Translations under genes and position numbers: made by a program
The notes under the pieces: generated by a model
The model's database searches: none
Told to the model about the DNA's origin: nothing
The model's input: the letters and a program-made list of their open reading frames with translations, nothing else
From: an uncultured Helicobacteraceae bacterium
GTDB taxonomy: Bacteria > Campylobacterota > Campylobacteria > Campylobacterales > Sulfurimonadaceae
Assembly: GCA_947311765.1 (NCBI GenBank)
Contig: CAMZLS010000081.1
Coordinates: 1-23,762 of the forward strand
Length of the DNA: 23,762 nucleotides
Reading direction: 5' to 3'
Shown here: in pieces, positions 631 to 17,887 of the stretch
Layout: every line of letters starts with the position of its first letter
Position numbering within the stretch: the first letter of the stretch is position 1

Positions 631-2268
631 ATGCTTAAAATTCATGCTACTCAATTTGTTCTGCCAAAAGCTTCTGGTGTCAAGGGTGATGATGCCTGTA
701 AATATGAAATTATTGATAACGAACTCCTTATCGCAGTTCTTTGTGATGGAGTTGGAAGTGCCGCACGTGGTGGAGCAGCAGCGCGTCAAAGTGTAAAATT
801 TTTTACAGATCAGTTCAAAATTCGTCCTAAAAATTGGAGCATAGAGCAGACACTTATTACCTTCACAAAGCATATTAACCGTCTTCTTTTTAAAGAATCT
901 ATGACCCAATATGAACAGATAGAACTTCTAACGACACTTTGTGTTGCAGTTGTAGAAGGTGACAAGCTCTATACGCTCAATCTCGGCGATTCTCATATCT
1001 ATCTACAAAACAATAATGAACTCACACTCTTAAGCGTTGATCATGTTATGGATAAAGAAAATATGAGCCATGTTCTTACACAAGCATGTGGCTTAAGCGA
1101 AAATATTGATCCTGAAGTCAAAGTTACGGGTATTAAAAAGGGTGATCGACTTATACTTTGTAGTGATGGTGTTTACAATATAACAGACGACTCTTATCTT
1201 AACGAACAGATTTCAAAAGGTCTCAGCGCAAAACTTATTATTAAGTCTATTACAAAAGATTATAAAGACAATGAGCGTGATGATGCTTCTATGCAGATTT
1301 TTACTATTGAAGAATTAAGTCAAATATGTACACTCAAAAACCTCAATCTTCCTATTCCTGAAGAACTGAAAAAAGGTGATATCATAGATGGCTATGAACT
1401 TGTAGAACCGATGATGCAACATCGCCGTATCTGGAAAGTTCGCAAAAAAGAGACTATTCTTGTGATGAAATTTCCAATGAGCGCTGATGACGAACAATCT
1501 TTAGAAGAGTTTGTACGAGAAGCTTGGTATGCAAAGCAGATTCACCACCGCTCTTTTGGAAACGCATGGATACCTGAGAAGCGAACGTCACGCTATTACC
1601 TTATGGAACTTGTAGAGGGAAATAATTTAGAAACTTTTTTAAATAGCAAGCATCTCTCTATTGATAATGCTATCGCTCTAGCTAAATTTTTACATAAAGC
1701 AGAGGCACATCTGCTTCACTTAGGGCTTGTGCATGGTGATATAAAACCTGAAAATATTATTGTTTATAGTGAGGCTGATACGGCTAAAACAGTTTTTAAG
1801 ATGGTTGATTTTGGCTCTATTGTAGAGATTTTTTCTACTGATACACGAGCAGGAACACCAACATATCTGGCGCCAGAGCGTTTTAATGAAGCTAATATTA
1901 ACGAATCCACAGAAATTTTCTCTATCGGTGTCACGCTCTATTGGGCACTGACGAGAAAGTATCCTTACGGTGAAATAGAGCCTTTTCAAACACCATCTTT
2001 TAAACAGCCAAGGCCTCCAAGCCACTACAATAAAAATATTCCAGATTGGTTTGATTCCATCATTCTGCGTGCCATCGCGATAAACCCAAAAGAGCGTTAC
2101 GCCCACTATAGTGAATTTTTCTATGAGTTAAAATCTCCCGAAAATGTAAAGCCATTTTTTCGCAAAAATGCCCCTCTTCTTGAGCGAGACCCTCTTCTTT
2201 TTTATAAAACAGCTTTTTTTACGCTTTTAGGAATTGATGTGATAATTCTTATGTTGTTGATTTCTTAG
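631..2268 (+). CDS. Bifunctional PP2C-type Ser/Thr phosphatase / Hanks-type Ser/Thr protein kinase fusion with a C-terminal transmembrane anchor
   Basis: N-terminal half has PP2C motifs (LCDGVGSAARGG, LGDSHIY, LILCSDGVYN). C-terminal half has kinase motifs (VMK lysine, hinge E in YYLMELVEG, catalytic loop HGDIKPEN, DFG, TPTYLAPE). Last about 20 aa are hydrophobic (FFTLLGIDVIILMLLIS). SD AAGG lies 6 nt upstream of the ATG. Confidence 0.75.
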   Translation: MLKIHATQFVLPKASGVKGDDACKYEIIDNELLIAVLCDGVGSAARGGAAARQSVKFFTDQFKIRPKNWSIEQTLITFTKHINRLLFKESMTQYEQIELLTTLCVAVVEGDKLYTLNLGDSHIYLQNNNELTLLSVDHVMDKENMSHVLTQACGLSENIDPEVKVTGIKKGDRLILCSDGVYNITDDSYLNEQISKGLSAKLIIKSITKDYKDNERDDASMQIFTIEELSQICTLKNLNLPIPEELKKGDIIDGYELVEPMMQHRRIWKVRKKETILVMKFPMSADDEQSLEEFVREAWYAKQIHHRSFGNAWIPEKRTSRYYLMELVEGNNLETFLNSKHLSIDNAIALAKFLHKAEAHLLHLGLVHGDIKPENIIVYSEADTAKTVFKMVDFGSIVEIFSTDTRAGTPTYLAPERFNEANINESTEIFSIGVTLYWALTRKYPYGEIEPFQTPSFKQPRPPSHYNKNIPDWFDSIILRAIAINPKERYAHYSEFFYELKSPENVKPFFRKNAPLLERDPLLFYKTAFFTLLGIDVIILMLLIS

Positions 2269-2794: not shown

Positions 2795-3949
2795 ATGGCA
2801 CATACATATACACCGTATGAAGATATAGACAAGGGGAAACTTCAAGAAGATATTGAAGCTATAAAAAAGAATTTAGACCCTGTAAATTGGGAAGATTTTC
2901 AACATTTACTCAAACTTGAACGCTGGGGAAGAGGCGCTACTTTGAGTGGATTTTTTATCATTTTTGTTATTAGCTTTTTAGAAATAAATAGTTTTGTATT
3001 TTGGTCTTTTGCTCTTATTGCAGCTATACTTATTGGTGTTGGAAATGTGGCAAGATGGGCAAATGTTACACACCCTATCTTGCATGGTGCTTACGATAAG
3101 GTGCCAAATATCCCTCACAAATATACAAAAGCGGGTTATGCGCGTGGTTGGAGACGTTTTATCCACTGGTCTGATTGGATTAAGCCTGAGGCTTGGGAAT
3201 ATGAGCACAATATCATGCACCACTACCATTTAGGTGAATTAGATGACCCTGATAATGTGGAAGCAAACCTCCAATGGCTTGTAAAATCTAAAATCCCAAT
3301 GTGGCTACGCTACGCTATCGTTTATGCTTTTGCAACAACATGGAAATATACTTATTACGCCCCAAATACTTTACGAATTTTAGAAAATAAAGAGCGTCGC
3401 AAACGCAAAGAGCCAGAAATATATGATTATGAGATGAGCCCTTTTACAAAAAATGGTTTAGAATTGTGGAAAAATTACTATCTTCCTTATGGAATTATCC
3501 AGTTTGTTATTCTTCCCTTTCTCTTCTTTCCACTTGGAATGGAAGCGGTACTCAACGCTTTTATTATCTTAGTCATGGCAGAAGTTTTTGCCAATCTTCA
3601 CTCCTTTTTAGTGATTGTTCCTAACCACTCTGCTGGAGATATCTATATGTTTAATGAACCACATAAATCTCAAGGTGAATTTTACCTCCGTCAAATTATG
3701 GGAAGCGTAAACTACAACACAGGAACTGACCTTATCGACTTTGCGCATGGCTTTTTAAACTATCAAATAGAGCATCACCTCTTCCCAAATATGCCACACA
3801 GCTTTTATCAAAAAATGCAACCTATCGTAAAAAATATTTGTAAAGAGCACAATCTTGAATACCGCCAAGAGAGCGTTTGGAGACGAATATACTTATCTAT
3901 CGAACTGATGGTTGGAAACTCAAAAGCATTGCGAGTAAATGGTGTCTAG
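2795..3949 (+). CDS. Membrane fatty-acid desaturase family protein (di-iron, His-box)
   Basis: Three His boxes are present (HGAYDK region, HNIMHHYH, QIEHHLFP). Multiple TM segments. The QIEHH third box is typical of front-end or sphingolipid-type desaturases. SD AAAGGAT precedes the ATG. Confidence 0.85.
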   Translation: MAHTYTPYEDIDKGKLQEDIEAIKKNLDPVNWEDFQHLLKLERWGRGATLSGFFIIFVISFLEINSFVFWSFALIAAILIGVGNVARWANVTHPILHGAYDKVPNIPHKYTKAGYARGWRRFIHWSDWIKPEAWEYEHNIMHHYHLGELDDPDNVEANLQWLVKSKIPMWLRYAIVYAFATTWKYTYYAPNTLRILENKERRKRKEPEIYDYEMSPFTKNGLELWKNYYLPYGIIQFVILPFLFFPLGMEAVLNAFIILVMAEVFANLHSFLVIVPNHSAGDIYMFNEPHKSQGEFYLRQIMGSVNYNTGTDLIDFAHGFLNYQIEHHLFPNMPHSFYQKMQPIVKNICKEHNLEYRQESVWRRIYLSIELMVGNSKALRVNGV

Positions 3950-4805
3950 TCAATTAGAGATGTTTCATAGTTTTTGTACGCAAAATCAGCCTAAAACTAT
4001 GCAAGAGGCCTTTGAAAGCTTCGCTGTTTTTGGCGGTATGGGTGTCAAGATAGATACCTCTAAACCTCTTTTGTACTCTATCAAAAAACATATCTTAGAT
4101 GAGTATCATTTTATTCATGGTAATATCATTGAAAAAACGCGAGGTGATAGCGTCTATCACTCTGTTTTAACGGGTCTTGCTATTGGTGATGCTCAAGCAC
4201 ACACTGCTCTTAAGCGTGCCAAACTCTCTGCGGATGATGGCAAACATGTTATCAATCAACTCTGTCATTTTGGACTTTTAGAGCGTGAAGTTTCACGAAA
4301 AATTTCACACTCTTGGGTTGAAGAGAATACTGTTTCTGATAAACTCCATTTTGTTAGCCCTTTTATGCGTTTTTGGTTTGGATTTGTTTCGCCACTTTTT
4401 AAGGGAATAGCTGAGGGAGATTATGAGGAGTTTGAAAAACGCTTTGAAAATCGAAAACAAGAGTTTATGGAACAAGCCTTTATACTATTATCACAAGACT
4501 TTATAAGAGAAAACTTCACAGACGATCCCATTGTCGAGATGGGAAGCTATTGGGATAAAAATATAGAGATAGATATCTTTGCCAAAACTACATCTGGCAA
4601 AATTATCGTAGGTTCTTGCAAATATACAAACTCTAAAATCAAAAAAAATCTTCTTAATAAACTCAAAGAAGATGCCTTACATGTAAAGATGGATGCTGAT
4701 ATCTTTATTTTAATATCAAAACAAGGCTTTTCTAATGAAGTAAAATTACTAAAAAGCGAAAGTCTTAAACTTTTTACTTTAAGAAACTTTAGAACTTCTC
4801 TGTAA
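3939..4805 (+). CDS. DUF234-like (restriction-endonuclease-fold) domain protein; resembles the C-terminal two thirds of archaeal-ATPase/DUF234 proteins but lacks a P-loop
   Basis: C-terminal segment SYWDKNIEIDIFAKTTSGKIIVGSCKY matches the DUF234 core pattern (EIDIva...gEcK). No Walker A motif. Overlaps the desaturase stop by 11 nt. An alternative ATG exists at 3960. Confidence 0.4.
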   Translation: MVSSQLEMFHSFCTQNQPKTMQEAFESFAVFGGMGVKIDTSKPLLYSIKKHILDEYHFIHGNIIEKTRGDSVYHSVLTGLAIGDAQAHTALKRAKLSADDGKHVINQLCHFGLLEREVSRKISHSWVEENTVSDKLHFVSPFMRFWFGFVSPLFKGIAEGDYEEFEKRFENRKQEFMEQAFILLSQDFIRENFTDDPIVEMGSYWDKNIEIDIFAKTTSGKIIVGSCKYTNSKIKKNLLNKLKEDALHVKMDADIFILISKQGFSNEVKLLKSESLKLFTLRNFRTSL

Positions 4806-4995
4806 CTACACTAGCAAATCCCTATGAATTTAAATATTTCAAGAAATAACTTTCTTGGCACTTATCTCTTTATTTGCCACTCTTTTTGGCTACAATACTA
4901 CCTAAAAAGAGTGAGGTACTTTTCTATGCCAAAATGGATACGCATAAGCGTTGGGTTTTTACTGCTTTATAGCGCACTGCTTATTACTGCTTGCG

Positions 4996-5874
4996 ATGGG
5001 ATTCGTCATGCCCTCTAAAAAAGAGTTTACAAGCGCTTCTCGTTACACTCCTGATAAGCAGAAAAAAAAGTTTGTCACTGCTACGCCTGCTTTAAGTGGG
5101 GTTTTGCTTCTGCTTGTCGGGGTGAATTATCTCTCTTTAAGTGTTCAGGCTTTGGCAAAGGCTGAGAGTTTTTACTTTATAAGCACCTTAGCGATTTTTG
5201 CCACCTATGTGCTTGCTTTTGTTCTGCTAAGACGTGGCTTGGCGCTTGAGAAGATTTATAATGACTCGAAATATGCTAAAGCACCAAAATATCCCCTTAA
5301 AACCATAGCTGGCTCACTTCTTGCTCTCTCTACGGTCTATAGCGCTAGCTTTGGTGAATATTCTCTTTTTCCTGCTTTAATGCTTGGATTGAGTGTGCTT
5401 TTGGGTTGGTATCTTTATTATGGTTTTGATCCGCGTGAAGATAAGATTGATGGGTATGAGACCTCAAAATCTGCAGAACGGATTATGAAACTCTTAATTC
5501 AGGCAAGAGAAGATATTGACGCTATCAAAAAAAATGCAACAGAGTTAGAGGGCGGAGACATTCAAGATGCGATAAATACTACCGCCTTAGCCTTTGAAAA
5601 GATGGTTAAACATATCGAAGAGGAGCCTGATGATTATGATAGGGCTCGAAAATATCTTGTCAGCTATCTTGGTGAAGTCAGACAGATGTGTGAAACCTTT
5701 GTCAAACTAGACAAGCGAGGCAAGTCAGAGAGTATGAAAACATCTTTTTTAGAGACCTTACATGTAAGCATTGAAAATCTCGATACACAGTACGAGAAGC
5801 TTTTAGATGAGGATATGGTGAGCTTGGATATCAAGCTTTCGGTGATGAAAAAACGACTACAAAATGAGGAGTAG
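4996..5874 (+). CDS. Membrane protein with N-terminal TM helices and a C-terminal coiled-coil domain; XpaC-like (5-bromo-4-chloroindolyl phosphate hydrolysis protein family), tentative
   Basis: The ORF is open from a TTG at 4951. The first ATG is 4996 and the next is 5008 (MPSKKEF). About 4 hydrophobic helices are followed by a charged helical C-terminus. It sits immediately 5' of a TelA-like gene, as in Bacillus xpaC-yaaN. The family call is from memory of that architecture. Confidence 0.4.
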   Translation: MGFVMPSKKEFTSASRYTPDKQKKKFVTATPALSGVLLLLVGVNYLSLSVQALAKAESFYFISTLAIFATYVLAFVLLRRGLALEKIYNDSKYAKAPKYPLKTIAGSLLALSTVYSASFGEYSLFPALMLGLSVLLGWYLYYGFDPREDKIDGYETSKSAERIMKLLIQAREDIDAIKKNATELEGGDIQDAINTTALAFEKMVKHIEEEPDDYDRARKYLVSYLGEVRQMCETFVKLDKRGKSESMKTSFLETLHVSIENLDTQYEKLLDEDMVSLDIKLSVMKKRLQNEE

Positions 5875-6979
5875 CATAGTGGAAATGAAACAAGAGTTAG
5901 AGAAAATAGAAGTTCAAGACGAGCACTCAGTAGGTGCTTTGGTAGAGAAGATAGATTTAAGTTCAAGCGCGTCTATTATCCATTTTGGAGCAGATGCCCA
6001 AGAGGAGTTGACGACAGTTTCATCGGCTATGCTTGAGGGCGTTAAGGGCAAAGATTTAGGAGAGGCTAGTGGACCGCTATTAAATATGATAGCGACTATC
6101 AAAGGTTTTGATGTTGCCGCGCTTGATCCAAATAAGAAGCTCAGTTTTTTTGACAAACTCTTAGGTCGCGCTAAGCCTCTTGTCATGTTTTTGGAAAAAT
6201 ATGAAGATACAAAAGAGCAGATAGAGGCGATAACAGATGAACTAGAGAAGCAAAAAGGGACACTCTTAAATGATATAGAATCTCTTGATCGCCTCTATGA
6301 TGCAAATCTCAACTATATTCATGAGCTAGAAAATTATATCGTCGCTGGTGGCAAGAAGATAGAGCATCTTGATAGCACAGAGATACCACTTTTAGAGACA
6401 AAAGCCACAGAGAGTGACAATATGCTTGAAGCCCAAGAGCTCAAAGACTTACGCGCTTCTCGTGATGATTTTGAGAGACGGGTACATGACTTGATGCTGA
6501 CTCGCCAAGTGGCACTGCAGGCACTTCCATCTATCCGCCTTGTTCAAGATAATGACAAAACCTTGATAAACAAGATAAACTCAACACTTGTAAATACCGT
6601 GCCACTATGGAAAAATCAACTCGCACAGACGATTACGATTTACAGAAATCAAAAAGCAGGTGGTGTGCTTAAAGAGGCGATGGACTTAACCAACGAGCTT
6701 TTAGAAGCCAATGCGAAAAACCTCAAAGAGGCAAATCGTCAGACGCGAGAACTTGCAGAGCGTGGTGTTTTTGATATAGAGAGTATTAAGCTTGCCAATA
6801 AGCTTCTTATTGAGACCATAGAAGATGGTATTATGATAGCTGATGAGGGCAAAAAAGCTCGTGCGAAAGCTGAAGCAGAACTAGTAGGTTTAGAACAAGA
6901 GCTCAAAGATGCTCTTGTAGCGACTCAGGTGCACAAAGAGCGTTTAGACAAATCAAAAGAGATAGCTAAGGAGGCGTAG
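5864..6979 (+). CDS. TelA-like toxic-anion-resistance family protein
   Basis: A 371-aa all-helical protein with a conserved N-terminal region (IIHFGADAQEEL ... ) and long coiled-coil stretches typical of the TelA/KlaA/YaaN family. It overlaps the upstream gene by 11 nt. Alternative starts lie at GTG 5879 or ATG 5885, after GAGGAG. Confidence 0.6.
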   Translation: MRSSIVEMKQELEKIEVQDEHSVGALVEKIDLSSSASIIHFGADAQEELTTVSSAMLEGVKGKDLGEASGPLLNMIATIKGFDVAALDPNKKLSFFDKLLGRAKPLVMFLEKYEDTKEQIEAITDELEKQKGTLLNDIESLDRLYDANLNYIHELENYIVAGGKKIEHLDSTEIPLLETKATESDNMLEAQELKDLRASRDDFERRVHDLMLTRQVALQALPSIRLVQDNDKTLINKINSTLVNTVPLWKNQLAQTITIYRNQKAGGVLKEAMDLTNELLEANAKNLKEANRQTRELAERGVFDIESIKLANKLLIETIEDGIMIADEGKKARAKAEAELVGLEQELKDALVATQVHKERLDKSKEIAKEA

Positions 6980-6980
6980 C

Positions 6981-8090
6981 ATGGGATTTTTTGATAAAAT
7001 AATGGGTGAGTTTATTGATGTTATTGAGTGGACTGATGGCTCCAATGATACGATGGTGTACCGTTTTGAGCGTTATGGCAATGAGATAAAGCATGGAGCA
7101 AAGCTGACTGTACGTGAGTCACAAGTGGCAGTTTTTGTCAACGAAGGGGAGATAGCAGATATCTTCGAGCCAGGCATCTATGAGCTAGAGACGCAAAATA
7201 TGCCGATAATGACAACACTTAATCACTGGGATCACGCTTTTAACAGCCCTTTTAAAGCGGAGGTCTATTTCTTTAATCTTCGCCGTTTTGTGGATCTTAA
7301 ATGGGGCACAAAAAACCCTCTTATGCTTCGAGATAAAGAGTTTGGACCTGTACGTATCCGCGCCTTTGGTACTTATGGTATCAAGATAGAAGAGCCTGAA
7401 ACTTTCTTAAAAGAGATAGTGGGAACTGATGGGTATTTTACTGTTGATGAGGTGAGCGACCAACTGCGAAATCTTATCGTTTCACGCTTTGCCACTATCG
7501 TAGGACAGGCAAATATCCCTATCTTGGACTTGGCTGCTAACTATGAGCAGATGAGTGAGTTTGTAGAGGAGAAAATCTCTCCAGAATTTAGTGCATATGG
7601 GCTGGAACTCACTAAACTTCTGATAGAAAATATCTCCCTCCCACCAAAAGTCGAAGAGGCACTCGATAAACGCACAGGCATGGGACTAACGGGCAACCTT
7701 GATGATTATCTCAAGTATCAAGCAGCCGAGGCTTTGAGCAGTTCAGGCTCAGGCAGCGGCGCAGCAGGTGATGCTATGGGTATGGGTATGGGTTTTGCAA
7801 TGGCACAGCAGATGGCAAACTCTTTAGGCGCGAACAACGCTTCACAGCCTCAATCGCACGCTACGCCGCCGCCACCACCAATTCCCAAAGCACAAACCTA
7901 CCACTTCGCTATAAACGGAGCATCCAAAGGCCCGATGACGATAGAGCAGATAAAAACAGCGATTCGTAGTGGGGAGATAGAAAAAGAGACTCTTGCGTGG
8001 CGCGAGGGGATGAGTGGCTGGGAGAAAGCGCAAGATGTAGATAATCTTAGCACTCTTTTCGGCTCTATGCCACCACCGATACCGAGCTAG
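6981..8090 (+). CDS. SPFH (band-7)-like domain protein with a C-terminal GYF-like DUF4339 domain; YdjI-like / COG4260 'virion core protein-like'
   Basis: N-terminus MGFFDKIMGEFIDVIEW...RESQVAVFVNEGEI...PGIYELET matches the YdjI-type SPFH family. It has a Gly/Ser/Met-rich linker and a PPPPP stretch. The C-terminal YHFAINGASKGPMTIEQIKTAIRSGEIEKETLAWREGMSGWEKAQDV is a DUF4339-type module. Start is 2 nt after the upstream stop. Confidence 0.65.
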   Translation: MGFFDKIMGEFIDVIEWTDGSNDTMVYRFERYGNEIKHGAKLTVRESQVAVFVNEGEIADIFEPGIYELETQNMPIMTTLNHWDHAFNSPFKAEVYFFNLRRFVDLKWGTKNPLMLRDKEFGPVRIRAFGTYGIKIEEPETFLKEIVGTDGYFTVDEVSDQLRNLIVSRFATIVGQANIPILDLAANYEQMSEFVEEKISPEFSAYGLELTKLLIENISLPPKVEEALDKRTGMGLTGNLDDYLKYQAAEALSSSGSGSGAAGDAMGMGMGFAMAQQMANSLGANNASQPQSHATPPPPPIPKAQTYHFAINGASKGPMTIEQIKTAIRSGEIEKETLAWREGMSGWEKAQDVDNLSTLFGSMPPPIPS

Positions 8091-8092
8091 TT

Positions 8093-9154
8093 ATGAAAAA
8101 AGAGTATATATTTCCTTGCGAGCAGTGTGGCGCGAAACTCAACTACTCCGTAGCTACTGGTGAGCTTACTTGCCCTTACTGTTCGCATGTAAATAAGATA
8201 GAGAGAGCTTTTTCTCAAGTTGTAGAGAAAGATTATGAAAAAGCACTCCAAGAGCTAAAAAATTTCAGTGAACATCCAAGTGAGATAACAAGCTCAAAAT
8301 GCCCGACTTGTGCGGCAACTTTTGAGTTAAGTGAAGATATCCACGCCTCAGAGTGCCCTTTTTGTGGCAGTGCAGTTGTCAATGAAGTCTCACGCTACAG
8401 ACCGATAAAACCCCAAGCACTGCTCCCTTTTGCCATAGATAAGAAAAAAGCAAAAATACTTTTCAAAGAGTGGCTCAAAGGGCGATGGTTTGCTCCAAAT
8501 AAACTCAAAGAGTATAGTGCAGAAGATAGTACCTTAGAGGGAATATTTGTGCCGTACTGGACCTATGATGCAGATACTCATAGCCGTTATAGTGGGCGTA
8601 GGGGTGATGCTTACTATGTGAGTGAGAGCTATACAGAAAATGGTGTAAGCAAAACAAGACGAGTTGAAAAGATACGCTGGAGTAGTGTCAGCGGAGAGTT
8701 AAGCAAAAATTTTGATGATGTTTTAGTGGTTGCTACGAATTCACAAACAAATGCTTCGTATAATTGGGATTTGAAAAACTTAGTCGATTATGATGAAGGA
8801 TTTTTAAGTGGCTATGAGAGTGAGGTCTATTCGGTAGAGCTAGATGATGGACTTAAAAGTGCTAAAACAACTATGACATATCACATACGAGAGGCAGTCA
8901 AACGCCAAATAGGAGGCGATAGACAAGAGATAAGCTCATTAAATAGCGACTTTTTCAATATCACTTTCAAGCATATACTCCTCCCAGTCTATGCCTCTGC
9001 TTTCAAGTTTGATGGAAAAGTATATAGCTATATCATCAATGGAAGAAATGGAGAGATAAGCGGAGAGAGACCATATAGTGTTATTAAGATAACTTTTGCG
9101 GTTCTTAGTGCTTTAGTTATAGGTGGTGCGATTTACTATTTTTCAAATCAATAA
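8093..9154 (+). CDS. Double zinc-ribbon protein with a C-terminal transmembrane anchor (YdjG-like partner of SPFH proteins, tentative)
   Basis: Two CxxC...CxxC ribbons (CEQCGAKL..CPYCSH; CPTCAATF..CPFCGS), a central domain, and the C-terminal helix VIKITFAVLSALVIGGAIYYF. Start is 3 nt after the upstream stop. Confidence 0.5.
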   Translation: MKKEYIFPCEQCGAKLNYSVATGELTCPYCSHVNKIERAFSQVVEKDYEKALQELKNFSEHPSEITSSKCPTCAATFELSEDIHASECPFCGSAVVNEVSRYRPIKPQALLPFAIDKKKAKILFKEWLKGRWFAPNKLKEYSAEDSTLEGIFVPYWTYDADTHSRYSGRRGDAYYVSESYTENGVSKTRRVEKIRWSSVSGELSKNFDDVLVVATNSQTNASYNWDLKNLVDYDEGFLSGYESEVYSVELDDGLKSAKTTMTYHIREAVKRQIGGDRQEISSLNSDFFNITFKHILLPVYASAFKFDGKVYSYIINGRNGEISGERPYSVIKITFAVLSALVIGGAIYYFSNQ

Positions 9155-10530
9155 TAAATCTTCATCTTTTCAGGATATGTTATCGTATAAATAACATTCA
9201 TCTTTTTACTTGTATTGCCTTTGATATCGGCTATGATGGTAAGCTTACCCGTTTTTGTATCATACTTATAAGGAAGATCTAGTTTTTCAAGGCTTACTTC
9301 TATCTCTTCTTGTGTTGAGAGTGGGATGCGTTCTGTGATGATAACTTTTTTATCTTTATCAGAACGATTTGTGAGAGTGAGTCTAAAGCCCTCTTTTTTA
9401 ACTCTTGCAGAGCTAAAGATACTCTTGTCTTGAGAAAACTCATGGATAGTCTCTTTTTTTGTTTCCATATCATAATCTATAGCAACATTGAGTAAAATCT
9501 TTGTACCATCCTTGCGAATTGGGGCATTTTCTATGAGTTGTCCTTTGTGACGTACCTTCCACTGTCGTGACTCTATGGTCTGTTTTGGAGTGAAACTTGC
9601 TGTTTTATATACATTGCTACTATTATAAGGGTGCCAAGTGAGTGTAGTGTTGATAGTGAGCTTTTCGCTATCAAGAGGAAGTTTTTTCTCTTTAGCATCT
9701 GAAGCGAGAGTAAGATTTTTGAGGTGGTAGCTTCGCGTCTCTAGTTTTTTTACATGGTAGCTATTTTCAGCAACAGGAGCAGGAGCCGCTGCCATTAGCA
9801 CCATATCTTGTCGCACAGCTCTTTTGGCTTTCATCTGTGCTTGTGCAATACGAATTTTTCTAGGATAAAACTGTGTTGGTGCGCTGATATAGCCTGCTGG
9901 TTTTGCAAAAAGTCTCACTTCTTCTGCCTCTATATCTATGCCAGAGGCATTGCTTAAAAGGAGTGAGTGTTGCAGTTTTGAGCTGTCCATATCCAAAAGA
10001 TATTCACTATGGAAGTAGAGTCCGCGGTTGATAGTGAGTTGTACTTTGGATTTTGGTATATCTGCATAAAAGAGAGGCTCTTTGCTTGGAGCATGTTTGG
10101 AAAACAGAGCACTTGCATTTTGTATCTCTTTTTGAAGATTTTGACTCTCTTGGGCTATTTTTGCCATACGTGAAGCGATTGTGCTTGCTGTTTTTATGGT
10201 ATTTTGAGCATCTATGTTTGTATCTGGAGCGTATTGGGAGATGATGGTATCTAAGATATTTTGCTCTTTTTTGAGTCTATCAAGCCTTACATGTAAGCCT
10301 TGTAGATGAGTGTATTGTGTGCATAGGCTACTCTTTGTCTTACAACTATTTCTTCTTATAAGCCCCAAGGAACCTTCTGAATTTTTAGCTTTTAAGTTTG
10401 TATTAAAACCTATAAAACTCTCTTTGGGTTCGTAGGTATAAAAACTTCTATCAGAGTAGATATCAAGAGATGAAGCAAGGAGTGCGATTTGACTTAGTGA
10501 TATGATGATAACTGAGAGGCGAAGTGACAT
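9148..10530 (-). CDS. Secreted/periplasmic protein of unknown function with a signal peptide and coiled coil; possibly a DUF4139/DUF4140 (MuiA-like) family member
   Basis: N-terminus MSLRLSVIIISLSQIALLASS is a signal peptide. 460 aa with long helical Q/K-rich stretches followed by a beta-rich C-terminal half. The family guess is weak. Convergent 7-nt overlap with the upstream + gene. Confidence 0.55.
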   Translation of the reverse strand: MSLRLSVIIISLSQIALLASSLDIYSDRSFYTYEPKESFIGFNTNLKAKNSEGSLGLIRRNSCKTKSSLCTQYTHLQGLHVRLDRLKKEQNILDTIISQYAPDTNIDAQNTIKTASTIASRMAKIAQESQNLQKEIQNASALFSKHAPSKEPLFYADIPKSKVQLTINRGLYFHSEYLLDMDSSKLQHSLLLSNASGIDIEAEEVRLFAKPAGYISAPTQFYPRKIRIAQAQMKAKRAVRQDMVLMAAAPAPVAENSYHVKKLETRSYHLKNLTLASDAKEKKLPLDSEKLTINTTLTWHPYNSSNVYKTASFTPKQTIESRQWKVRHKGQLIENAPIRKDGTKILLNVAIDYDMETKKETIHEFSQDKSIFSSARVKKEGFRLTLTNRSDKDKKVIITERIPLSTQEEIEVSLEKLDLPYKYDTKTGKLTIIADIKGNTSKKMNVIYTITYPEKMKIYY

Positions 10531-10582: not shown

Positions 10583-12409
10583 ATGACAAAATTTCTACTC
10601 TACTCTTTTGTGCTCTTTTTTACATTTTTACAAACTCCACTCACCGCTGATGATATCTTTGGTGATTTTATCGCTAAACAGATAGAGATAGAGACACAGT
10701 TTTTAGATAAAAATATGACTTCTAGTAGTGTAGAAAAATTAATGAATGAGCAAAACCGTGATTATCGTACCTTTTTCTTGGCGCTTATCTCAAAAGATAT
10801 GGATGTTTTCAAAGGGACAAAAGATTATAAGCTTGCAGTCTCTACCCTAGAGAGACGCATGAAGATAAATAAACAACGCGGTAACACAAGAGCTTACCTT
10901 CGAGATAAGCTAAAACGAAATACTTATCTTCTTCTACAAAACATCAAAGAGACCTTTGAAGCAGTAAAAACTGCAACAAAGAGCAATACAAAAAAAGAGT
11001 TTGATAAGCGTATAGATTCCATTGTAGCCTCTCGCCATGAAAAAGATGAGACAATAGATATAAAAAAATATAATTTTCTTAAGCAAAGTGGTGATACAAG
11101 TGAAATGACACAAAAGATTCGTGCCAATTTTATCGAAAATCAGGCAGTTTTAAATATTCACAATATGATAAGTTCAGAGCTTGTACGCTTTAAATCACCT
11201 CTGTATGATGCTGTAAAACTCTCCTCTTTTGGCTTGGTATCGCTAGGGTATAAAATTAACACAAGCACATATGGAAGTAAACTCAATACTTATATCTCTT
11301 GGAGTGGTTTAGATAGTGCAAAAATTATTTTTATATTTTTCTTTTTACTTGTCTTGTATTTCGCTAGAAAATTGGTAGTTTTCCTCTCTGGTAAATTTTT
11401 GAAAAACTTTTTTGAAAAATCTGATGATATTAGTTTTATTATAAATAGTATCTCTGGTGTGGTAAGTCTTATTGTTATCGTTGTGAGTATTGATGTTGTG
11501 GTGAAGATATATGCAGGTTTTATGGATGCACCGTGGATACGTTTGAGTTTTAGTATCGCTTATACTGTCTTGATTACCTATCTTGTGCAAAAACTTATCA
11601 GCGCGGTAGCAACACTCAAGATAGAGCAGTTTAGGCGTTCAGAGTATCTGCGTCATGAGGTTATCAACCTTGCTATGCGTGTGCTCAATATTTTTATCTA
11701 TATCATCGGTTTAGTTGTGGTTTTAAATCTTTTTGATGTTGATTTAAGTGCTATCCTTTCTGGTCTTGGAATTGGTGGATTTGCCGTTGCTTTTGCGGCC
11801 AAAGATACTATTGCAAATTTCTTCGGTTCTGTCTCTATTTTGATGGGTGACCTTTTTGAACAAGGTGATTGGATAGCGGTAGATGGCTATGAGGGAACAG
11901 TCGTTGAAATTGGCTTACGCGCAACAACTATACGAACCTTTGACAATGCTATGATTGCCATTCCTAACTTTAAACTTGTGGATAATGGACTGAGAAATTG
12001 GAGCAAACGCCTTCTTGGTCGCCGTATCAAAATGCACATTGGTGTGACTTATGAGTCAGATTTTAAGGATATAAAAAAAGCTATTGATGAGATACGCCAG
12101 ATGTTAATCGAGCATAAAGATATAGCAAACTCAAATCAAGAAACACTCGCCCCAGAACGTTACGCCCGCTTAGTCTCAAGAGAAGACTATAGAGGTGTCA
12201 AGCGTACTATGCTTGTCTATATGGATAAATTTTCAGATTCAAGTATAGATATCTTGATTTACTGCTACTCTCGCTCTGTTGTCTGGAATGAGTGGTTAGC
12301 AACCAAAGAGGATGTAATGTATAAAATCGCAGAGATACTAGAGAAAAACAATCTCTCCTTTGCTTATCCTGCTCTAGCTATTCATCAAGTACAAGAGCAG
12401 TCTTTTTAA
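10583..12409 (+). CDS. mscS: Mechanosensitive ion channel, MscS family (large N-terminal periplasmic domain type)
   Basis: Signal-like N-terminus, multiple TM helices, and the MscS pore/beta-domain signature (GDWIAVDGYEGTVVEIGLRATTIRTFDNAMIAIPNFKLVDNGLRNWSK). Confidence 0.9.
   Translation: MTKFLLYSFVLFFTFLQTPLTADDIFGDFIAKQIEIETQFLDKNMTSSSVEKLMNEQNRDYRTFFLALISKDMDVFKGTKDYKLAVSTLERRMKINKQRGNTRAYLRDKLKRNTYLLLQNIKETFEAVKTATKSNTKKEFDKRIDSIVASRHEKDETIDIKKYNFLKQSGDTSEMTQKIRANFIENQAVLNIHNMISSELVRFKSPLYDAVKLSSFGLVSLGYKINTSTYGSKLNTYISWSGLDSAKIIFIFFFLLVLYFARKLVVFLSGKFLKNFFEKSDDISFIINSISGVVSLIVIVVSIDVVVKIYAGFMDAPWIRLSFSIAYTVLITYLVQKLISAVATLKIEQFRRSEYLRHEVINLAMRVLNIFIYIIGLVVVLNLFDVDLSAILSGLGIGGFAVAFAAKDTIANFFGSVSILMGDLFEQGDWIAVDGYEGTVVEIGLRATTIRTFDNAMIAIPNFKLVDNGLRNWSKRLLGRRIKMHIGVTYESDFKDIKKAIDEIRQMLIEHKDIANSNQETLAPERYARLVSREDYRGVKRTMLVYMDKFSDSSIDILIYCYSRSVVWNEWLATKEDVMYKIAEILEKNNLSFAYPALAIHQVQEQSF
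12329..12396 (+). repeat. Direct repeat copy 1 (inside the 3' end of mscS), 68 bp
   Basis: Identical except for 1 nt to 15537..15604. Confidence 0.85.
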
Positions 12410-15665: not shown

Positions 15666-16613
15666 ATGTATAAAAAAATAGAAGCAATAAAATCAGAAAT
15701 TTCAAAAGTAGTAGTTGGTCAAGATAAGATGATTGACGGATTATTAATCGGTCTTTTATGTGAAGGGCATATTCTTATAGAGGGTATTCCAGGTCTTGCT
15801 AAGACAACTACAGTTAAAGCACTTTCCGAGAGTTTGGGTCTTGGGTTTAAGCGTGTTCAGTTTACCCCTGACTTGTTGCCATCAGATATTTTAGGAGCAG
15901 AGATTTATGATCCTAAGAGTAATGAGTTTAAAATCAAACACGGTCCAATTTTTACAAACCTTCTCCTTGCAGATGAGATTAACCGTGCACCAGCAAAGGT
16001 ACAATCAGCACTGCTTGAAGTGATGCAAGAGCGTCAAGTGACTATTGGTGAAGAGAGTTTTAAACTTACTCCTCCATTTTTTGTTATGGCTACGCAAAAT
16101 CCAATAGAACAAGAGGGTGTCTATCAACTTCCAGAAGCGCAACTAGACCGTTTTATGATGAAGCTTAATATTGGCTATAACACGCAAGAAGAAGAGTTAG
16201 AGATAGCAAGACGTATCGCCAACAAACAGAGTGAAACAATAAAAGCTGTCGTAACACTCGAAGAGATTGAAGCACTCAAACAAGCAGTCTCTGAAGTGCA
16301 TGTAGATGAAGAGGTCGAAAAATACATTATTGAACTTGTTCAAGCTACGCGTAATCCTGAAAACTATGGTTTAAAAGAGATGAAAGAGCATATTCAGTTT
16401 GGTGCTTCTCCTCGTGTAAGTATTGATATGTTCAAGGCCGTTAAAGCGATGGCATATCTTCGTGGCAAAGATTTTGTAACACCTGTTGATATCGCTTATA
16501 TTGCCAAAGATATGATGCGCCACCGTATCGTTTTGAGCTATGAAGCAGAAGCAGAAGGTATCACAACTGACCAGATTATAGAAAATGTACTCAAAGCGGT
16601 GCCTATCCCCTAA
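15666..16613 (+). CDS. moxR: MoxR-family AAA+ ATPase
   Basis: Walker A GIPGLAKTT, Walker B LLADEINRA, sensor and arginine-finger regions. Canonical MoxR length (315 aa). Confidence 0.95.
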   Translation: MYKKIEAIKSEISKVVVGQDKMIDGLLIGLLCEGHILIEGIPGLAKTTTVKALSESLGLGFKRVQFTPDLLPSDILGAEIYDPKSNEFKIKHGPIFTNLLLADEINRAPAKVQSALLEVMQERQVTIGEESFKLTPPFFVMATQNPIEQEGVYQLPEAQLDRFMMKLNIGYNTQEEELEIARRIANKQSETIKAVVTLEEIEALKQAVSEVHVDEEVEKYIIELVQATRNPENYGLKEMKEHIQFGASPRVSIDMFKAVKAMAYLRGKDFVTPVDIAYIAKDMMRHRIVLSYEAEAEGITTDQIIENVLKAVPIP

Positions 16614-17443
16614 TGTCAAAGCTTCAAAAAATCCTTGTCCGCGCACGCCGACAAGTCTTTTCAGAGATGGTGGGAAACAATCCTTCTATCTTTCAAGGCG
16701 AGGGTTACGATTTTATCGAGATGCGTGAATACAATCACGGAGATGATATTCGCCATATTGATTGGAATGTTACCGCGAAGATGCAGCGTCCCTACATCAA
16801 AATTTTTCGTGAAGAGCGAGAGTTAAATGTAGTGATGGCATCTATGCTTAATGGTTCCGTTCACTTTGGAAGTAAGAAGTTCAAACAAGAGACTATTGCG
16901 GAGCTTGTTGCGCTGCTTAGTTTCTCAGTTTTACGCAATGGCGACTTGTTGAGTCACTATATCTTTGCTGATAAGATGTATCAAAATGATAAGCCTAGTA
17001 AAAAGATGTTTGCAGTGCAAAAGTATGTAGAGTCTATTTTAGAATTTGATGCTTTAAATAAAAAAGCAGATTATAAAATGATGGCAGACACTCTCTATAA
17101 ACGTCTTAAAAGAAAATCACTGCTTATTATCATAGGTGACTTTTTCGAGATACCTGATTTTCGTCTTTTGGCGAAAAAACATGAAGTTATTGCGGTAATT
17201 GTTCGTGATAAATTAGAAGAAAATCCTCCAGTGATGGGTTTTAGCTCACTAAGTGATCCAGAATCAGGGCAGATGCTAGAGGGTGATTTTAACCGCAGTA
17301 GTGTAAATGCTTATGCGCAAAAAGTGGCAGAGCATGACCGTAAACTGTTTGAGCGTTTTCGTAAAGATCAGGTACATTTTACAAAAATATATACAGACGA
17401 TGTAGCAAGTGTGAAGCTCCGTCGTCTCTTTGAGGGGAGATAA
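16613..17443 (+). CDS. DUF58 domain protein (MoxR partner, VWA-like)
   Basis: DUF58 signature GDDIRHIDWNVTAKMQRPYIKIFREERELNVVM. TAATG stop/start overlap with moxR. Confidence 0.85.
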   Translation: MSKLQKILVRARRQVFSEMVGNNPSIFQGEGYDFIEMREYNHGDDIRHIDWNVTAKMQRPYIKIFREERELNVVMASMLNGSVHFGSKKFKQETIAELVALLSFSVLRNGDLLSHYIFADKMYQNDKPSKKMFAVQKYVESILEFDALNKKADYKMMADTLYKRLKRKSLLIIIGDFFEIPDFRLLAKKHEVIAVIVRDKLEENPPVMGFSSLSDPESGQMLEGDFNRSSVNAYAQKVAEHDRKLFERFRKDQVHFTKIYTDDVASVKLRRLFEGR

Positions 17444-17887
17444 ATGGATATTTCAAAATTACCAAAATTACCACTCTCTAAGCCACTTCCTAGTGCTCCT
17501 GATATTCCTTTGCATGATATCAAGCCACTTGTAGAGATAAGTGATTATTCACTCTATTATCTCTCGGCTCTTATTGCTCTAGGTCTTATTATTCTTTTAG
17601 CCCTTGCATTTTTCGCTTGGAGGTATTGGAGTCAAAAAAATCGTTACACCACTCGAAAAGAGCACTTCGAGCGTTTACAAAATATAGATTTTTCTCATCC
17701 CAAAAATGCAGCCTATGCTATCACAAAATATGGCTATACCTTTTCTCAAGATGGAGAGCGTCAGCATGAGACATATGAGAATCTTTTATCACGCTTAGCC
17801 CCTTACAAATATAAAAAATCAGTTGATGCTATAGACGATGAGGCTAAGGGCTATTTTAATATTTATCTGGAGATGATTGATGTTTGA
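17444..17887 (+). CDS. Small single-pass membrane protein (position equivalent to the DUF4381-type gene of Bat operons)
   Basis: Pro-rich N-terminus, then the TM helix YYLSALIALGLIILLALAFFAW. Begins 1 nt after the upstream stop. Confidence 0.5.
   Translation: MDISKLPKLPLSKPLPSAPDIPLHDIKPLVEISDYSLYYLSALIALGLIILLALAFFAWRYWSQKNRYTTRKEHFERLQNIDFSHPKNAAYAITKYGYTFSQDGERQHETYENLLSRLAPYKYKKSVDAIDDEAKGYFNIYLEMIDV

What the first reader, a model, noticed from the sequence alone, without database searches (positions are those of the whole stretch)
4926..9154. Compact four-gene membrane-stress-like module: XpaC-like + TelA-like + SPFH/DUF4339 (YdjI-like) + double Zn-ribbon membrane protein
The four genes overlap or are separated by at most 3 nt, consistent with one operon.
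- Known associations: TelA with XpaC-like proteins, and YdjI-type SPFH proteins with Zn-ribbon partners, are each linked to envelope or toxic-anion stress (Ter/Psp-associated systems in Firmicutes).
- Here the two pairs are fused into a single cluster in a Campylobacterota-like background, without PspA, TerB/C/D or other usual partners.
This could be a distinct membrane-repair or toxic-anion module. Its ligand and function would be uncharacterised.
Basis: partly seen in the sequence, partly recalled or inferred. Interest (0 to 1): 0.6.

Follow-up and report, generated by a model that had tools for sequence, protein, structure and literature searches.

The report
Conserved TelA–SPFH membrane-stress operon
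This is a real, tightly packed operon of five genes, not four. It joins two membrane-stress gene pairs known separately from Bacillus (XpaC/TelA and the SPFH/YdjG pair). It recurs in the same order in many Proteobacteria, so it is a widespread but undescribed variant of known envelope-stress systems rather than a one-off oddity.

Summary
Four co-directional genes encode:
- an XpaC-like 4-TM protein (5008..5874)
- TelA (5864/5879..6979)
- a soluble SPFH Band_7_1 + GYF_2 protein (6981..8090)
- a tail-anchored protein with two Zn-ribbons and a PepSY/YpeB-like core (8093..9154)

All Pfam assignments pass their cut-offs except the Zn-ribbons, which are supported by eight invariant cysteines. This ORF is conserved upstream of XpaC-like genes in Campylobacterota, Gamma- and Alphaproteobacteria.

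Gene 4 is a YdjG/SamG-family protein. hhalign gives 99.9% to an Enterococcus protein that lies between an SPFH gene and a TPM (YdjH-like) gene.

The order XpaC–TelA–SPFH–YdjG-like recurs in 51 of 80 genome loci sampled (Granulosicoccaceae, Thiotrichaceae, Rhodobacterales). SPFH–YdjG-like alone occurs in at least six further phyla. No PspA, TPM or TerB/C/D gene is in the window.

Best reading: a PspA-independent sub-membrane stress/homeostasis complex in which the SPFH/YdjG platform is coupled to XpaC/TelA. Function is inferred, not shown. I rate it a new variant of a known kind, of moderate interest.

The parts
4891..4896 (+). -10-like promoter hexamer TACAAT, within GGCTACAATAC
   Evidence: A GCTAtAATA-type element aligns 25-45 nt upstream of the small ORF's ATG in all five Campylobacterota-type loci, although the flanking sequence is unrelated. 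This is a consensus match only; there are no transcription data.
4926..5018 (+). 30-aa small membrane peptide MPKWIRISVGFLLLYSALLITACDGIRHAL. It has a basic N-terminus and one TM helix. A lipobox-like ITAC is present, but its Cys is not universally conserved. This is the first cistron.
   Evidence: An SD-like AGTGAGG lies at 4910-4916. The ORF is conserved with synonymous changes in L084, L085, L086 and L092. Positional equivalents are found in Gamma- and Alphaproteobacteria: 29 of 54 loci match a strict pattern, against 0 of 2200 random positions. It has no Pfam family and is rarely annotated.
5008..5874 (+). XpaC-like membrane protein, 288 aa. It has about 4 TM helices (residues 24-139) and a cytoplasmic helical domain of about 150 aa.
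   Evidence: PF10112 scores 67.3 bits against a cut-off of 29.8. The start at ATG 5008 gives the same length as the orthologs in L084 and L086, with the same 11-nt overlap with the small ORF.
5864..6979 (+). TelA (toxic anion resistance family), soluble. The longest ORF starts at ATG 5864. The probable start is GTG 5879 (366 aa), preceded by GAGGAG.
   Evidence: PF05816 scores 343.6 bits. It is 52-55% identical to the Gamma- and Alphaproteobacterial orthologs in the same cluster. The AF2 model has a long helical hairpin (105-183 / 187-266) plus a helix at 305-370. The start was judged by homology to L086.
6981..8090 (+). Soluble SPFH protein. Band_7_1 (nt 7056-7685), Gly/Met-rich linker (7746-7829), PPPPPIP (7866-7886), GYF_2 (7899-8048), C-terminal PPPIP (8070-8084).
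   Evidence: PF13421 scores 333 bits and PF14237 61.6 bits. There is no TM segment. PPPxP motifs flank GYF_2 in 72 of 72 orthologs.
8093..9154 (+). YdjG/SamG-family tail-anchored protein. Zn-ribbon 1 (nt 8117-8182), Zn-ribbon 2 (8300-8365), conserved alpha+beta core (8411-9073), TM helix (9074-9145).

Best explanation
The block 4891..9154 is one operon of five cistrons. It most likely encodes a PspA-independent complex on the cytoplasmic face of the inner membrane that monitors or stabilises a stressed membrane.

**Shown from sequence**
- Three products are membrane-anchored: the 30-aa one-TM peptide; XpaC-like (about 4 TM plus a cytoplasmic helical domain); and the YdjG-like protein (two cytoplasmic Zn-ribbons, two PepSY/YpeB-like alpha+beta units, and a C-terminal TM tail anchor).
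- Two products are soluble: TelA, an elongated helical bundle, and the SPFH-GYF protein.

**Inferred from B. subtilis PspA-YdjGHI/SamGHI work**
- The YdjG-like anchor recruits the soluble SPFH protein to the membrane, where it oligomerises into a scaffold.
- The invariant PPPxP-GYF-PPPxP tail may provide intra- or inter-subunit proline-motif binding.

**Inferred from E. faecium and Listeria genetics**
- XpaC positions or restrains TelA, and TelA is the component that acts on membrane or phospholipid organisation.

**Inferred from the conserved gene fusion**
- The SPFH/YdjG platform works together with XpaC/TelA. XpaC/TelA occupies the position that PspA plus the TPM protein YdjH hold in Firmicutes.
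For: - Domain content.
- Tight or overlapping junctions, and topology.
- A shared -10-like element upstream of the first cistron.
- Same order and strand in 51 of 80 genome loci (16 compact; 35 with DUF2927 inserted), plus L084, L085, L086 and L091.
- Bridging variants: TelA-SPFH-ZnR (L002) and XpaC-TelA-SPFH (L092).
- The block keeps its boundaries while the flanks differ among Campylobacterota-type contigs.
- SPFH-YdjG-like dyads in Kiritimatiellota, Planctomycetota, Lentisphaeria, Bacteroidota, Armatimonadota, Geobacter, Actinomycetota and Bacillota.
- Gene 4 belongs to the YdjG family; PMC11237479.
- YdjG and YdjH are needed for membrane localisation of YdjI and PspA: PMC8581546. SamI restrains SamGH: bioRxiv 10.64898/2026.02.06.704340.
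- xpaC-yaaN and pspA-ydjGHI are both in the sigma-W regulon: PMC3498285.
- The E. faecium xpaC deletion phenotype (daptomycin binding, phospholipid microdomains) needs an intact telA: PMC6811118.
- Listeria telA affects nisin tolerance: cited in PMC12791056.
Against: - No experiment exists for any Gram-negative or Campylobacterota version. Co-transcription and physical interactions are untested.
- Each pair also occurs alone, so joint function is not obligatory.
- YdjH (TPM) is the partner that contacted YdjI and PspA in B. subtilis two-hybrid assays, and it is absent here. Recruitment of SPFH by the YdjG-like protein alone is therefore an extrapolation.
- TelA shows no sequence relationship to PspA (hhalign probability <1%). 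Its fold matches are generic helical bundles, with no ESCRT-III among the top 60.
- The genome sample was the 80 best tblastn matches, not a random sample.
Confidence: 0.55

Rival explanations
1. Two independent two-gene modules (XpaC-TelA and SPFH-YdjG-like) merely sit next to each other. They share a promoter for economy but do not form one machine or pathway.
For: SPFH-ZnR dyads are common without TelA or XpaC (15+ loci). XpaC-TelA pairs exist without SPFH/ZnR in Bacillota (PMC3498285, PMC6811118, PMC12791056). In Rhodobacterales, DUF2927 is inserted between the pairs, and the wider SPFH-ZnR spacing in some loci suggests further genes there.
Against: The same order and strand are kept across two phyla and three classes in more than 50 loci. 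The TelA-to-SPFH gap is 1 nt here. Variants that lose one outer gene keep the TelA-SPFH junction (L002, L092). Both operons are co-regulated by sigma-W in B. subtilis (PMC3498285).
Confidence: 0.2
2. A toxic-anion or metal-handling (Ter-type) resistance module. TelA, with XpaC, deals with tellurite-like oxyanions or metal export, and the SPFH/ZnR proteins organise a transporter.
For: TelA is named for tellurite resistance, and its PHROG annotation is 'tellurite resistance'. A TerC gene lies directly upstream in 9 Rhodobacterales loci, 8 of them co-directional. TerC proteins handle Mn/metalation (PMC10550928).
Against: The window has no TerB, TerC or TerD, no transporter and no reductase, and nor do the compact Gamma or Campylobacterota versions. 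No Mn riboswitch or other Rfam element is present. The reported TelA phenotypes in Firmicutes are mainly towards membrane and cell-wall-active agents, with only a 2-fold tellurite effect (PMC12791056, PMC6811118).
Confidence: 0.1
3. A membrane stress sensor that signals to gene expression, rather than an effector. The YdjG-like Zn-ribbons, together with the membrane subunits, would transmit a signal that the SPFH protein holds in check, as proposed for SamI/SamGH.
For: The 2026 preprint proposes that SamI restrains SamGH signalling (10.64898/2026.02.06.704340). Popp et al. note that the YdjG Zn-ribbon type can bind DNA (PMC9239133). A Comamonas ortholog of the SPFH protein carries an HTH_17 domain in place of GYF_2.
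Against: No transcription factor, kinase or sigma/anti-sigma gene is conserved next to the cluster. The Zn-ribbons are tethered to the membrane by a tail anchor. This reading is compatible with, and partly overlaps, the best explanation.
Confidence: 0.1
4. An anti-phage defence or abortive-infection cassette carried on mobile DNA.
For: On a Vibrio plasmid, the SPFH-ZnR dyad lies near a TIR-domain gene and a gene annotated 'TRAFs-binding domain-containing protein'. The block sits in different genomic contexts in related contigs. Its GC content (0.40-0.46) is higher than that of the flanks (0.30-0.38).
Against: There are no PADLOC matches beyond a sub-threshold LmuB fragment. Phage matches are few and distant, mostly on short unannotated contigs. 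Most neighbours are housekeeping genes, and no integrase or transposase flanks the block in the window.
Confidence: 0.03

Closest known systems
B. subtilis pspA-ydjGHI (pspA-samGHI) operon
   Same: Both have a soluble Band_7_1 SPFH protein with a low-complexity linker and a small C-terminal adaptor domain. Both have a partner with two Zn-ribbons, a YpeB/PepSY-like core and a C-terminal TM. Both are operonic. In B. subtilis the setting is envelope stress under sigma-W.
   Different: No PspA and no TPM-domain YdjH here. The SPFH C-terminus is GYF_2 flanked by PPPxP motifs, not a Zn-ribbon. The gene order differs. XpaC, TelA and a 30-aa peptide are added.
xpaC-yaaN (xpaC-telA) two-gene operons of Bacillota (B. 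subtilis, Listeria lmo1966-1967, E. faecium)
   Same: An XpaC-like membrane protein sits directly upstream of a soluble TelA-family protein. The literature links these operons to sigma-W, nisin, daptomycin and membrane phenotypes.
   Different: Here the pair is fused to the SPFH/YdjG-like dyad and preceded by a conserved small TM peptide. The host is Campylobacterota-type (Gram-negative).
RK2 kilA/klaABC (TelA = KlaB) and Ter (terZABCDE) tellurite-resistance determinants
   Same: They contain a TelA-family protein (PF05816). In some Rhodobacterales relatives a TerC gene is adjacent.
   Different: No KlaA or TelB, and no TerB, TerD or TerZ. The window has no TerC. There is no evidence of a link to oxyanions.
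SPFH-partner operons (FloT-YuaF/NfeD, QmcA-YbbJ, HflK/C-FtsH)
   Same: An SPFH scaffold is encoded next to a dedicated membrane partner.
   Different: The SPFH protein here has no TM or hairpin of its own. The partner is a Zn-ribbon/PepSY-like tail-anchored protein, not an NfeD protein or a protease.
Myxococcus GltJ GYF domain (PDB 7z3c; NCBIfam NF033761)
   Same: The C-terminal GYF_2 domain and the neighbouring proline-rich linker resemble the GltJ region (E 3.5e-08 to the GltJ model; E 1.7e-4 to 7z3c).
   Different: Only the adaptor domain is shared. The score of 33 bits is far below the 450-bit cut-off, and no gliding machinery is present.

Membership tests
TelA / toxic anion resistance family (PF05816) | Full-length match to the TelA profile above the gathering score | tested here: met
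   343.6 bits against a cut-off of 30; residues 25-351 cover profile positions 3-330 of 332. Homologs are named 'toxic anion resistance protein' or YaaN.
XpaC (PF10112, Halogen_Hydrol) | Match to the profile above the gathering score, with N-terminal TM helices and a position directly upstream of telA | tested here: met
   67.3 bits against a cut-off of 29.8. About 4 TM segments. The gene is adjacent to TelA.
YdjI/SamI-type SPFH proteins | Band_7_1 SPFH domain with no membrane anchor of its own | tested here: met
   PF13421 scores 333 bits. No hydrophobic segment is found. It is 24% identical (E 3e-13) to the Enterococcus SPFH protein encoded next to the YdjG-like and TPM genes.
YdjI/SamI-type SPFH proteins | C-terminal Zn-finger or Zn-ribbon after a low-complexity linker, as in B. 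subtilis YdjI | tested here: not met
   The linker is present, but the C-terminal domain is GYF_2 (61.6 bits) flanked by PPPxP motifs. The Enterococcus ortholog has a double Zn-ribbon.
YdjG/SamG family | Two N-terminal Zn-ribbons | tested here: met
   There are four CxxC motifs, and all 8 Cys are invariant in 45 sequences. Zn-ribbon profile hits are sub-threshold.
YdjG/SamG family | Central YpeB-related / NTF2-like alpha+beta domain (Ravi et al. 2024) | tested here: inconclusive
YdjG/SamG family | C-terminal TM segment, and an SPFH gene as neighbour | tested here: met
   The TM helix is at residues 328-351. An SPFH gene lies directly upstream here and in most loci.
YdjG/SamG family | Sequence homology to Firmicutes members | tested here: met
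   hhalign gives 99.9% (E 5.6e-36) over 323 columns to the Enterococcus gallinarum protein that lies between the SPFH and TPM genes. The B. subtilis YdjG sequence itself was not available. Its primer-derived N-terminus MIISYKCPNC (PMC8581546) fits the same Zn-ribbon start.
Psp (phage shock protein) system | A PspA/IM30 family protein in the locus | tested here: not met
   No PspA Pfam hit on any window ORF. TelA against PspA gives hhalign probability <1%.
Psp-YdjGHI system | TPM-domain membrane protein (YdjH) | tested here: not met
   No TPM_phosphatase hit in the window. The domain is present in the Enterococcus version.
Ter tellurite-resistance system | TerB, TerC or TerD genes in the locus | tested here: not met
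   None in the window. TerC is adjacent only in 9 Rhodobacterales loci.
Known anti-phage defence systems (PADLOC-DB v2) | Match of any component to a defence-system model | tested here: not met
   The only match is a 13.4-bit partial hit of gene 4 to LmuB, at E 0.0055.

The most novel reading that the evidence does not exclude
The SPFH(Band_7_1)-YdjG-like dyad is an ancient, pan-bacterial sub-membrane platform that docks interchangeable effector pairs: PspA + TPM/YdjH in Bacillota, and XpaC + TelA + a previously unrecognised family of roughly 30-aa TM peptides in Proteobacteria and Campylobacterota. On this reading TelA, whose mechanism has been unclear since its discovery as a 'tellurite resistance' protein, is a PspA-analogous (not homologous) membrane-protecting or membrane-remodelling helical-bundle effector. 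XpaC would hold it in check, and the SPFH scaffold would deliver it to damaged membrane.
Probability: 0.3. Interest if true: 0.65.

Novelty: new variant of a known kind. Interest (0 to 1): 0.45.

Why it matters
TelA/XpaC and YdjI/YdjG (SamI/SamG) are each linked to resistance against membrane-active antibiotics and to envelope stress in Gram-positive bacteria, but neither has a known mechanism.

Many Proteobacteria and Campylobacterota hard-wire the two pairs into one operon, without PspA. This gives a concrete, testable hypothesis that the pairs act together. It also offers Gram-negative model clusters, for example in culturable Rhodobacterales (Ruegeria, Leisingera, Roseovarius), in which to test it.

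The analysis also found three features that annotation has missed or left unexplained:
- a conserved small membrane peptide upstream of the XpaC-like gene
- an invariant PPPxP-GYF-PPPxP tail on the SPFH protein
- a very large YdjG-like family (about 2,500 clusters at 50% identity) whose core has no Pfam model

Tried and rejected
2. **XpaC's cytoplasmic domain related to TelA or PspA: rejected.** Probability is about 0.2% in each comparison.
3. **A proline-rich N-terminal extension of the YdjG-like protein as the general ligand of the partner's GYF domain: rejected as general.** Only 15 of 59 extended homologs have PP or PxP, and the window protein has no extension.
4. **A frameshifted or pseudogenised XpaC gene as the explanation for the 4926 start: rejected.** The 30-aa ORF and its 11-nt overlap are conserved in relatives.
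5. **The small peptide as an obligatory lipoprotein: not supported.** The Cys is missing in L085, L005, L017 and most Rhodobacterales.
6. **A riboswitch or leader RNA: none found.** No Rfam match.
7. **A defence system or phage origin: no support**.
8. **Solved-structure relatives by sequence.** None for TelA or the core of gene 4. Only the GYF domain of the SPFH protein matched a structure, 7z3c.
9. **Things that could not be done.** The exact gene-4 protein was not on record. The AFDB Foldseek library was unavailable. The 2012 Ter-system comparative genomics paper (Anantharaman, Iyer and Aravind) could not be read, so an earlier mention of a TelA-Band-7 linkage cannot be excluded.
10. **Literature searches** for TelA/XpaC together with SPFH, Band-7 or YdjG found no description of this cluster.


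Full report
**1. What is in the sequence**

The region holds co-directional ORFs on the + strand. Pfam scans give these results:

| Gene | Coordinates | Pfam result |
|---|---|---|
| XpaC-like | ORF 4951..5874 | PF10112 (XpaC/Halogen_Hydrol), 67.3 bits, cut-off 29.8 |
| TelA | 5864..6979 | PF05816, 343.6 bits |
| SPFH | 6981..8090 | PF13421 Band_7_1 333 bits; PF01145 60 bits; PF14237 GYF_2 (formerly DUF4339) 61.6 bits |
| Zn-ribbon protein | 8093..9154 | only sub-threshold Zn-ribbon hits |

Gene 4 carries four CxxC motifs. All eight cysteines are invariant in a 45-sequence alignment, and one C-terminal TM helix lies at residues 328-351. TelA and the SPFH protein have no hydrophobic segment. 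The XpaC-like protein has about four TM segments followed by a helical tail of about 150 aa.

Junctions are tight:
- TelA to SPFH: 1 nt.
- SPFH to ZnR: 2 nt.
- XpaC to TelA: an 11-nt overlap if TelA starts at ATG 5864. More likely it is a 4-nt gap with a start at GTG 5879. That start has a GAGGAG Shine-Dalgarno sequence and gives the same N-terminus and the same length (366 aa) as the 88%-identical ortholog in L086.

The rest of the 23.7-kb window encodes an MFS fragment, a PP2C-kinase fusion, a fatty-acid desaturase, DUF234, DUF4139 (convergent), MscS, a subtilase, a MoxR-DUF58-VWA-BatD operon, rubrerythrin and a redoxin. There is no PspA, TPM or TerB/C/D gene. No tRNA or Rfam element is present.

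**2. A correction: there is a fifth gene**

It opens a 30-aa ORF (4926..5018, MPKWIRISVGFLLLYSALLITACDGIRHAL) preceded by AGTGAGG. This ORF overlaps by 11 nt an in-frame ATG at 5008, which yields a 288-aa XpaC-like protein.

Evidence that the small ORF is real:
- Gene calls in related contigs show the same arrangement, a 30-aa gene overlapping a 288- or 299-aa XpaC gene by 11 nt (L084 and L085). The same ORF is also present, though not called as a gene, in L086 and L092.
- The four peptides first compared differ by 6-13 synonymous and 6-12 non-synonymous codons, while keeping the pattern M-P-x-W-[IL]-R-x-x-V-G-F-[hydrophobic run].
- A profile of them picks up weak hits at exactly the same place, on the + strand at the 5' end of the XpaC gene, in about ten gammaproteobacterial loci.
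- Direct inspection shows equivalent 27-29-aa ORFs (longer in a few loci) in Granulosicoccaceae and Thiotrichaceae (MPKALQRVIGFFILLATVGMLSCQAL..) and in Rhodobacterales (MSxTGLQKLAFFLLVLLILYVSV.GG.).
- A strict pattern is met in 29 of 54 testable loci, against 0 of 2,200 random positions in the same DNA. This is an undercount, because the window's own peptide fails the pattern.
- The peptide has no Pfam family. It is called as a gene in only 3 of 8 exact look-ups, never with a name, and not in the window's own record.
- The Cys that makes it look like a lipoprotein signal peptide is not universally conserved, so I read it as a small single-pass membrane protein.
- A GCTAtAATA-type -10 element (window TACAAT, 4891-4896) aligns 25-45 nt upstream of the peptide's ATG in all five Campylobacterota-type loci, within otherwise unrelated flanks. 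This fits the peptide being the first cistron.

**3. Gene 4 is a YdjG/SamG-family protein**

- Size and spread. Gene 4 has more than 3,700 homologs in the 90%-clustered database, spread over several phyla. A profile search of the 50%-clustered library finds 2,469 representative clusters at E<=1e-30 and 6,769 at E<=1e-10. No Pfam model covers its conserved core.
- Firmicutes homolog. A tblastn search of annotated plasmids found a homolog in Enterococcus gallinarum (25% identity over 96% of the query). It is encoded between a Band_7_1 SPFH gene that ends in a double Zn-ribbon and a TPM-domain gene. That is the YdjI/YdjG/YdjH set.
- Homology. Profile-to-sequence comparison gives 99.9% probability, E 5.6e-36, over 323 columns. 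BLASTP gives E 7e-32. The SPFH proteins of the two clusters are also homologous (E 3e-13).
- What I could not do. I could not obtain the B. subtilis YdjG sequence itself. Its primer-derived N-terminus (MIISYKCPNC; PMC8581546) fits the same start.

**4. Co-conservation**

One scan of species-representative genomes with the gene-4 profile returned the 80 best loci. This is a sample biased towards close relatives, and oddly it contained no Campylobacterota. phmmer with the window's proteins against all ORFs of these loci gave:

| Architecture (same order and strand) | Loci | Lineage |
|---|---|---|
| XpaC-TelA-SPFH-ZnR, compact | 16 | Granulosicoccaceae, Thiotrichaceae and other Gammaproteobacteria |
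| XpaC-TelA-DUF2927-SPFH-ZnR | 35 | Rhodobacterales |

- Of the 35 Rhodobacterales loci, 9 have a TerC gene just upstream (8 co-directional), and 3 have a duplicated XpaC.
- SPFH-ZnR alone occurs in Kiritimatiellota, Planctomycetota, Lentisphaeria, Bacteroidota, Armatimonadota and Geobacter. It also occurs on Tsukamurella, Comamonas and Vibrio plasmids.
- In five loci with full upstream sequence, the ZnR gene has no SPFH neighbour (L022, L048, L050, L058, L073).
- Closer relatives fetched by exact-protein look-up show the full block with the small ORF in L084, L085 and L086, and in a 5.1-Mb genome (L091). L002 has TelA-SPFH-ZnR without XpaC. L092 has peptide-XpaC-TelA-SPFH without ZnR.
- The flanks of these blocks all differ, apart from DUF4139/MscS in L086. 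The block therefore behaves as a discrete unit.
- Identity to the window's proteins in Gamma and Alpha clusters is 24-32% (XpaC), 52-55% (TelA), 55-65% (SPFH) and 43-50% (ZnR).
- No locus gave a PspA hit.

**5. Other anatomy**

- All 72 full-length SPFH orthologs carry a PPPxP motif just before GYF_2 and another at the extreme C-terminus (window nt 7866-7886 and 8070-8084). A Gly/Met-rich linker precedes the first motif.
- GYF domains bind proline-rich peptides. That is established for eukaryotic GYF domains and is my inference here. On that basis this is a built-in candidate ligand pair, either for oligomerisation or for auto-inhibition.
- The adaptor domain at the SPFH C-terminus varies by lineage: GYF_2 in most, HTH_17 in Comamonas, and a double Zn-ribbon in Enterococcus and B. 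subtilis (PMC8581546).

**6. Mechanism**

Experimental anchors come only from Bacillota:
- YdjG and YdjH are required for membrane foci of the soluble YdjI, and through it of PspA (PMC8581546).
- SamI (YdjI) is proposed to restrain SamGH (bioRxiv 10.64898/2026.02.06.704340).
- xpaC-yaaN and pspA-ydjGHI both belong to the sigma-W regulon (PMC3498285).
- In E. faecium, deleting xpaC, but not telA or both genes, lowers the daptomycin MIC 8-fold and redistributes phospholipid microdomains. The phenotype therefore needs an intact TelA (PMC6811118).
- Listeria telA mutants are more nisin-sensitive (cited in PMC12791056).

Combining these with the topology and the conserved fusion, I propose a sub-membrane complex:
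- The tail-anchored YdjG-like protein recruits the SPFH-GYF scaffold.
- XpaC, perhaps together with the small peptide, holds TelA.
- The two halves cooperate in sensing or stabilising a perturbed membrane.
- XpaC/TelA stands where PspA/YdjH stands in Firmicutes.

Only the parts list, the topology and the co-conservation are shown. Every interaction and the physiological role are inferred. I put 0.55 on this. The remainder is split as follows: 0.2 on two adjacent but independent modules; 0.1 on a toxic-anion or metal role; 0.1 on a mainly signalling role, which overlaps the main reading; and 0.03 on defence.

**7. Comparison, novelty and verdict**

The components are members of known families: TelA, XpaC, Band_7_1 SPFH and YdjG-like. 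The system is not a Psp system, because it has no PspA and no TPM protein. It is not a Ter system, because it has no TerB/C/D.

I found no paper that describes the XpaC-TelA-SPFH-YdjG-like cluster or the small peptide. Ravi et al. 2024 mention the YdjG/band-7 coupling only for Firmicutes with PspA. I could not read the 2012 Ter-system survey, so an earlier mention cannot be excluded.

I classify the finding as a new variant of a known kind. It is widespread and well supported as a conserved operon, and it is useful because it gives TelA a testable context. It is not categorically new, and there is no functional evidence here. Interest 0.45.

Noticed in passing
window 4926..5018 (+); also L084 4858..4950, L085 4784..4876, L086 362..454, L092 6053..6148: A conserved, mostly unannotated 27-30-aa single-TM peptide gene overlaps the start of XpaC-like genes. 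Equivalents are present in Gamma- and Alphaproteobacteria.
   Followed up: yes
window 7866..7886 and 8070..8084 (+): PPPxP motifs lie on both sides of the GYF_2 domain of the SPFH protein. They are present in 72 of 72 orthologs, with one always at the extreme C-terminus, and may be a built-in GYF ligand pair.
   Followed up: partly
window 9148..10530 (-) and 10583..12409 (+): A DUF4139 (MuiA-like) gene converges on the Zn-ribbon gene and overlaps it by 7 nt, and an MscS-family channel gene follows. The same two neighbours occur in L086. A DUF4139 gene lies three genes from the SPFH-ZnR dyad on a Comamonas plasmid (L089). An MscS gene lies upstream of the dyad in Poriferisphaera (L037). This may be a weak link to membrane tension, or it may be coincidence.
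   Followed up: partly
window 2795..3949 and 3939..4805 (+): A fatty-acid desaturase gene overlaps a DUF234-only gene by 11 nt, on the same strand just upstream of the module. The DUF234 protein has no ATPase domain. A membrane-lipid enzyme next to a membrane-stress operon is suggestive, but the pairing is not conserved in relatives.
   Followed up: no
L020-L083 (Rhodobacterales loci), e.g. L066 1608..2495 and 4797..5708: In Rhodobacterales a DUF2927 gene is inserted between TelA and SPFH in 35 loci. A TerC gene sits directly upstream of the peptide/XpaC genes in 9 loci, and XpaC is duplicated in 3 loci.
   Followed up: partly
window 5001..8500: The GC content of the module (0.40-0.46) is higher than that of the flanks (0.30-0.38). 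The block also sits in different genomic contexts in related contigs. Both points are compatible with lateral movement of the cassette. TelA is 52-55% identical to its gammaproteobacterial orthologs.
   Followed up: no
window 631..2268 (+): A single ORF fuses a PP2C-type phosphatase domain (N-terminal) to a Ser/Thr protein kinase domain (C-terminal).
   Followed up: no
window 15666..22109 (+); AT-skew peak 19500..21000: A MoxR(AAA_3)-DUF58-DUF4381-VWA-VWA/TPR-BatD 'Bat' operon. The VWA/TPR protein ends in a long Lys/Glu/Asp/Gln-rich low-complexity tail containing a 33-nt tandem repeat (20242..20310). This tail explains the AT-skew peak.
   Followed up: partly
L089 4591..5691 (Comamonas plasmid): The SPFH ortholog there carries an HTH_17 DNA-binding domain in place of GYF_2. 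The C-terminal adaptor of this SPFH subfamily is therefore swapped between lineages (GYF_2, HTH or double Zn-ribbon).
   Followed up: no
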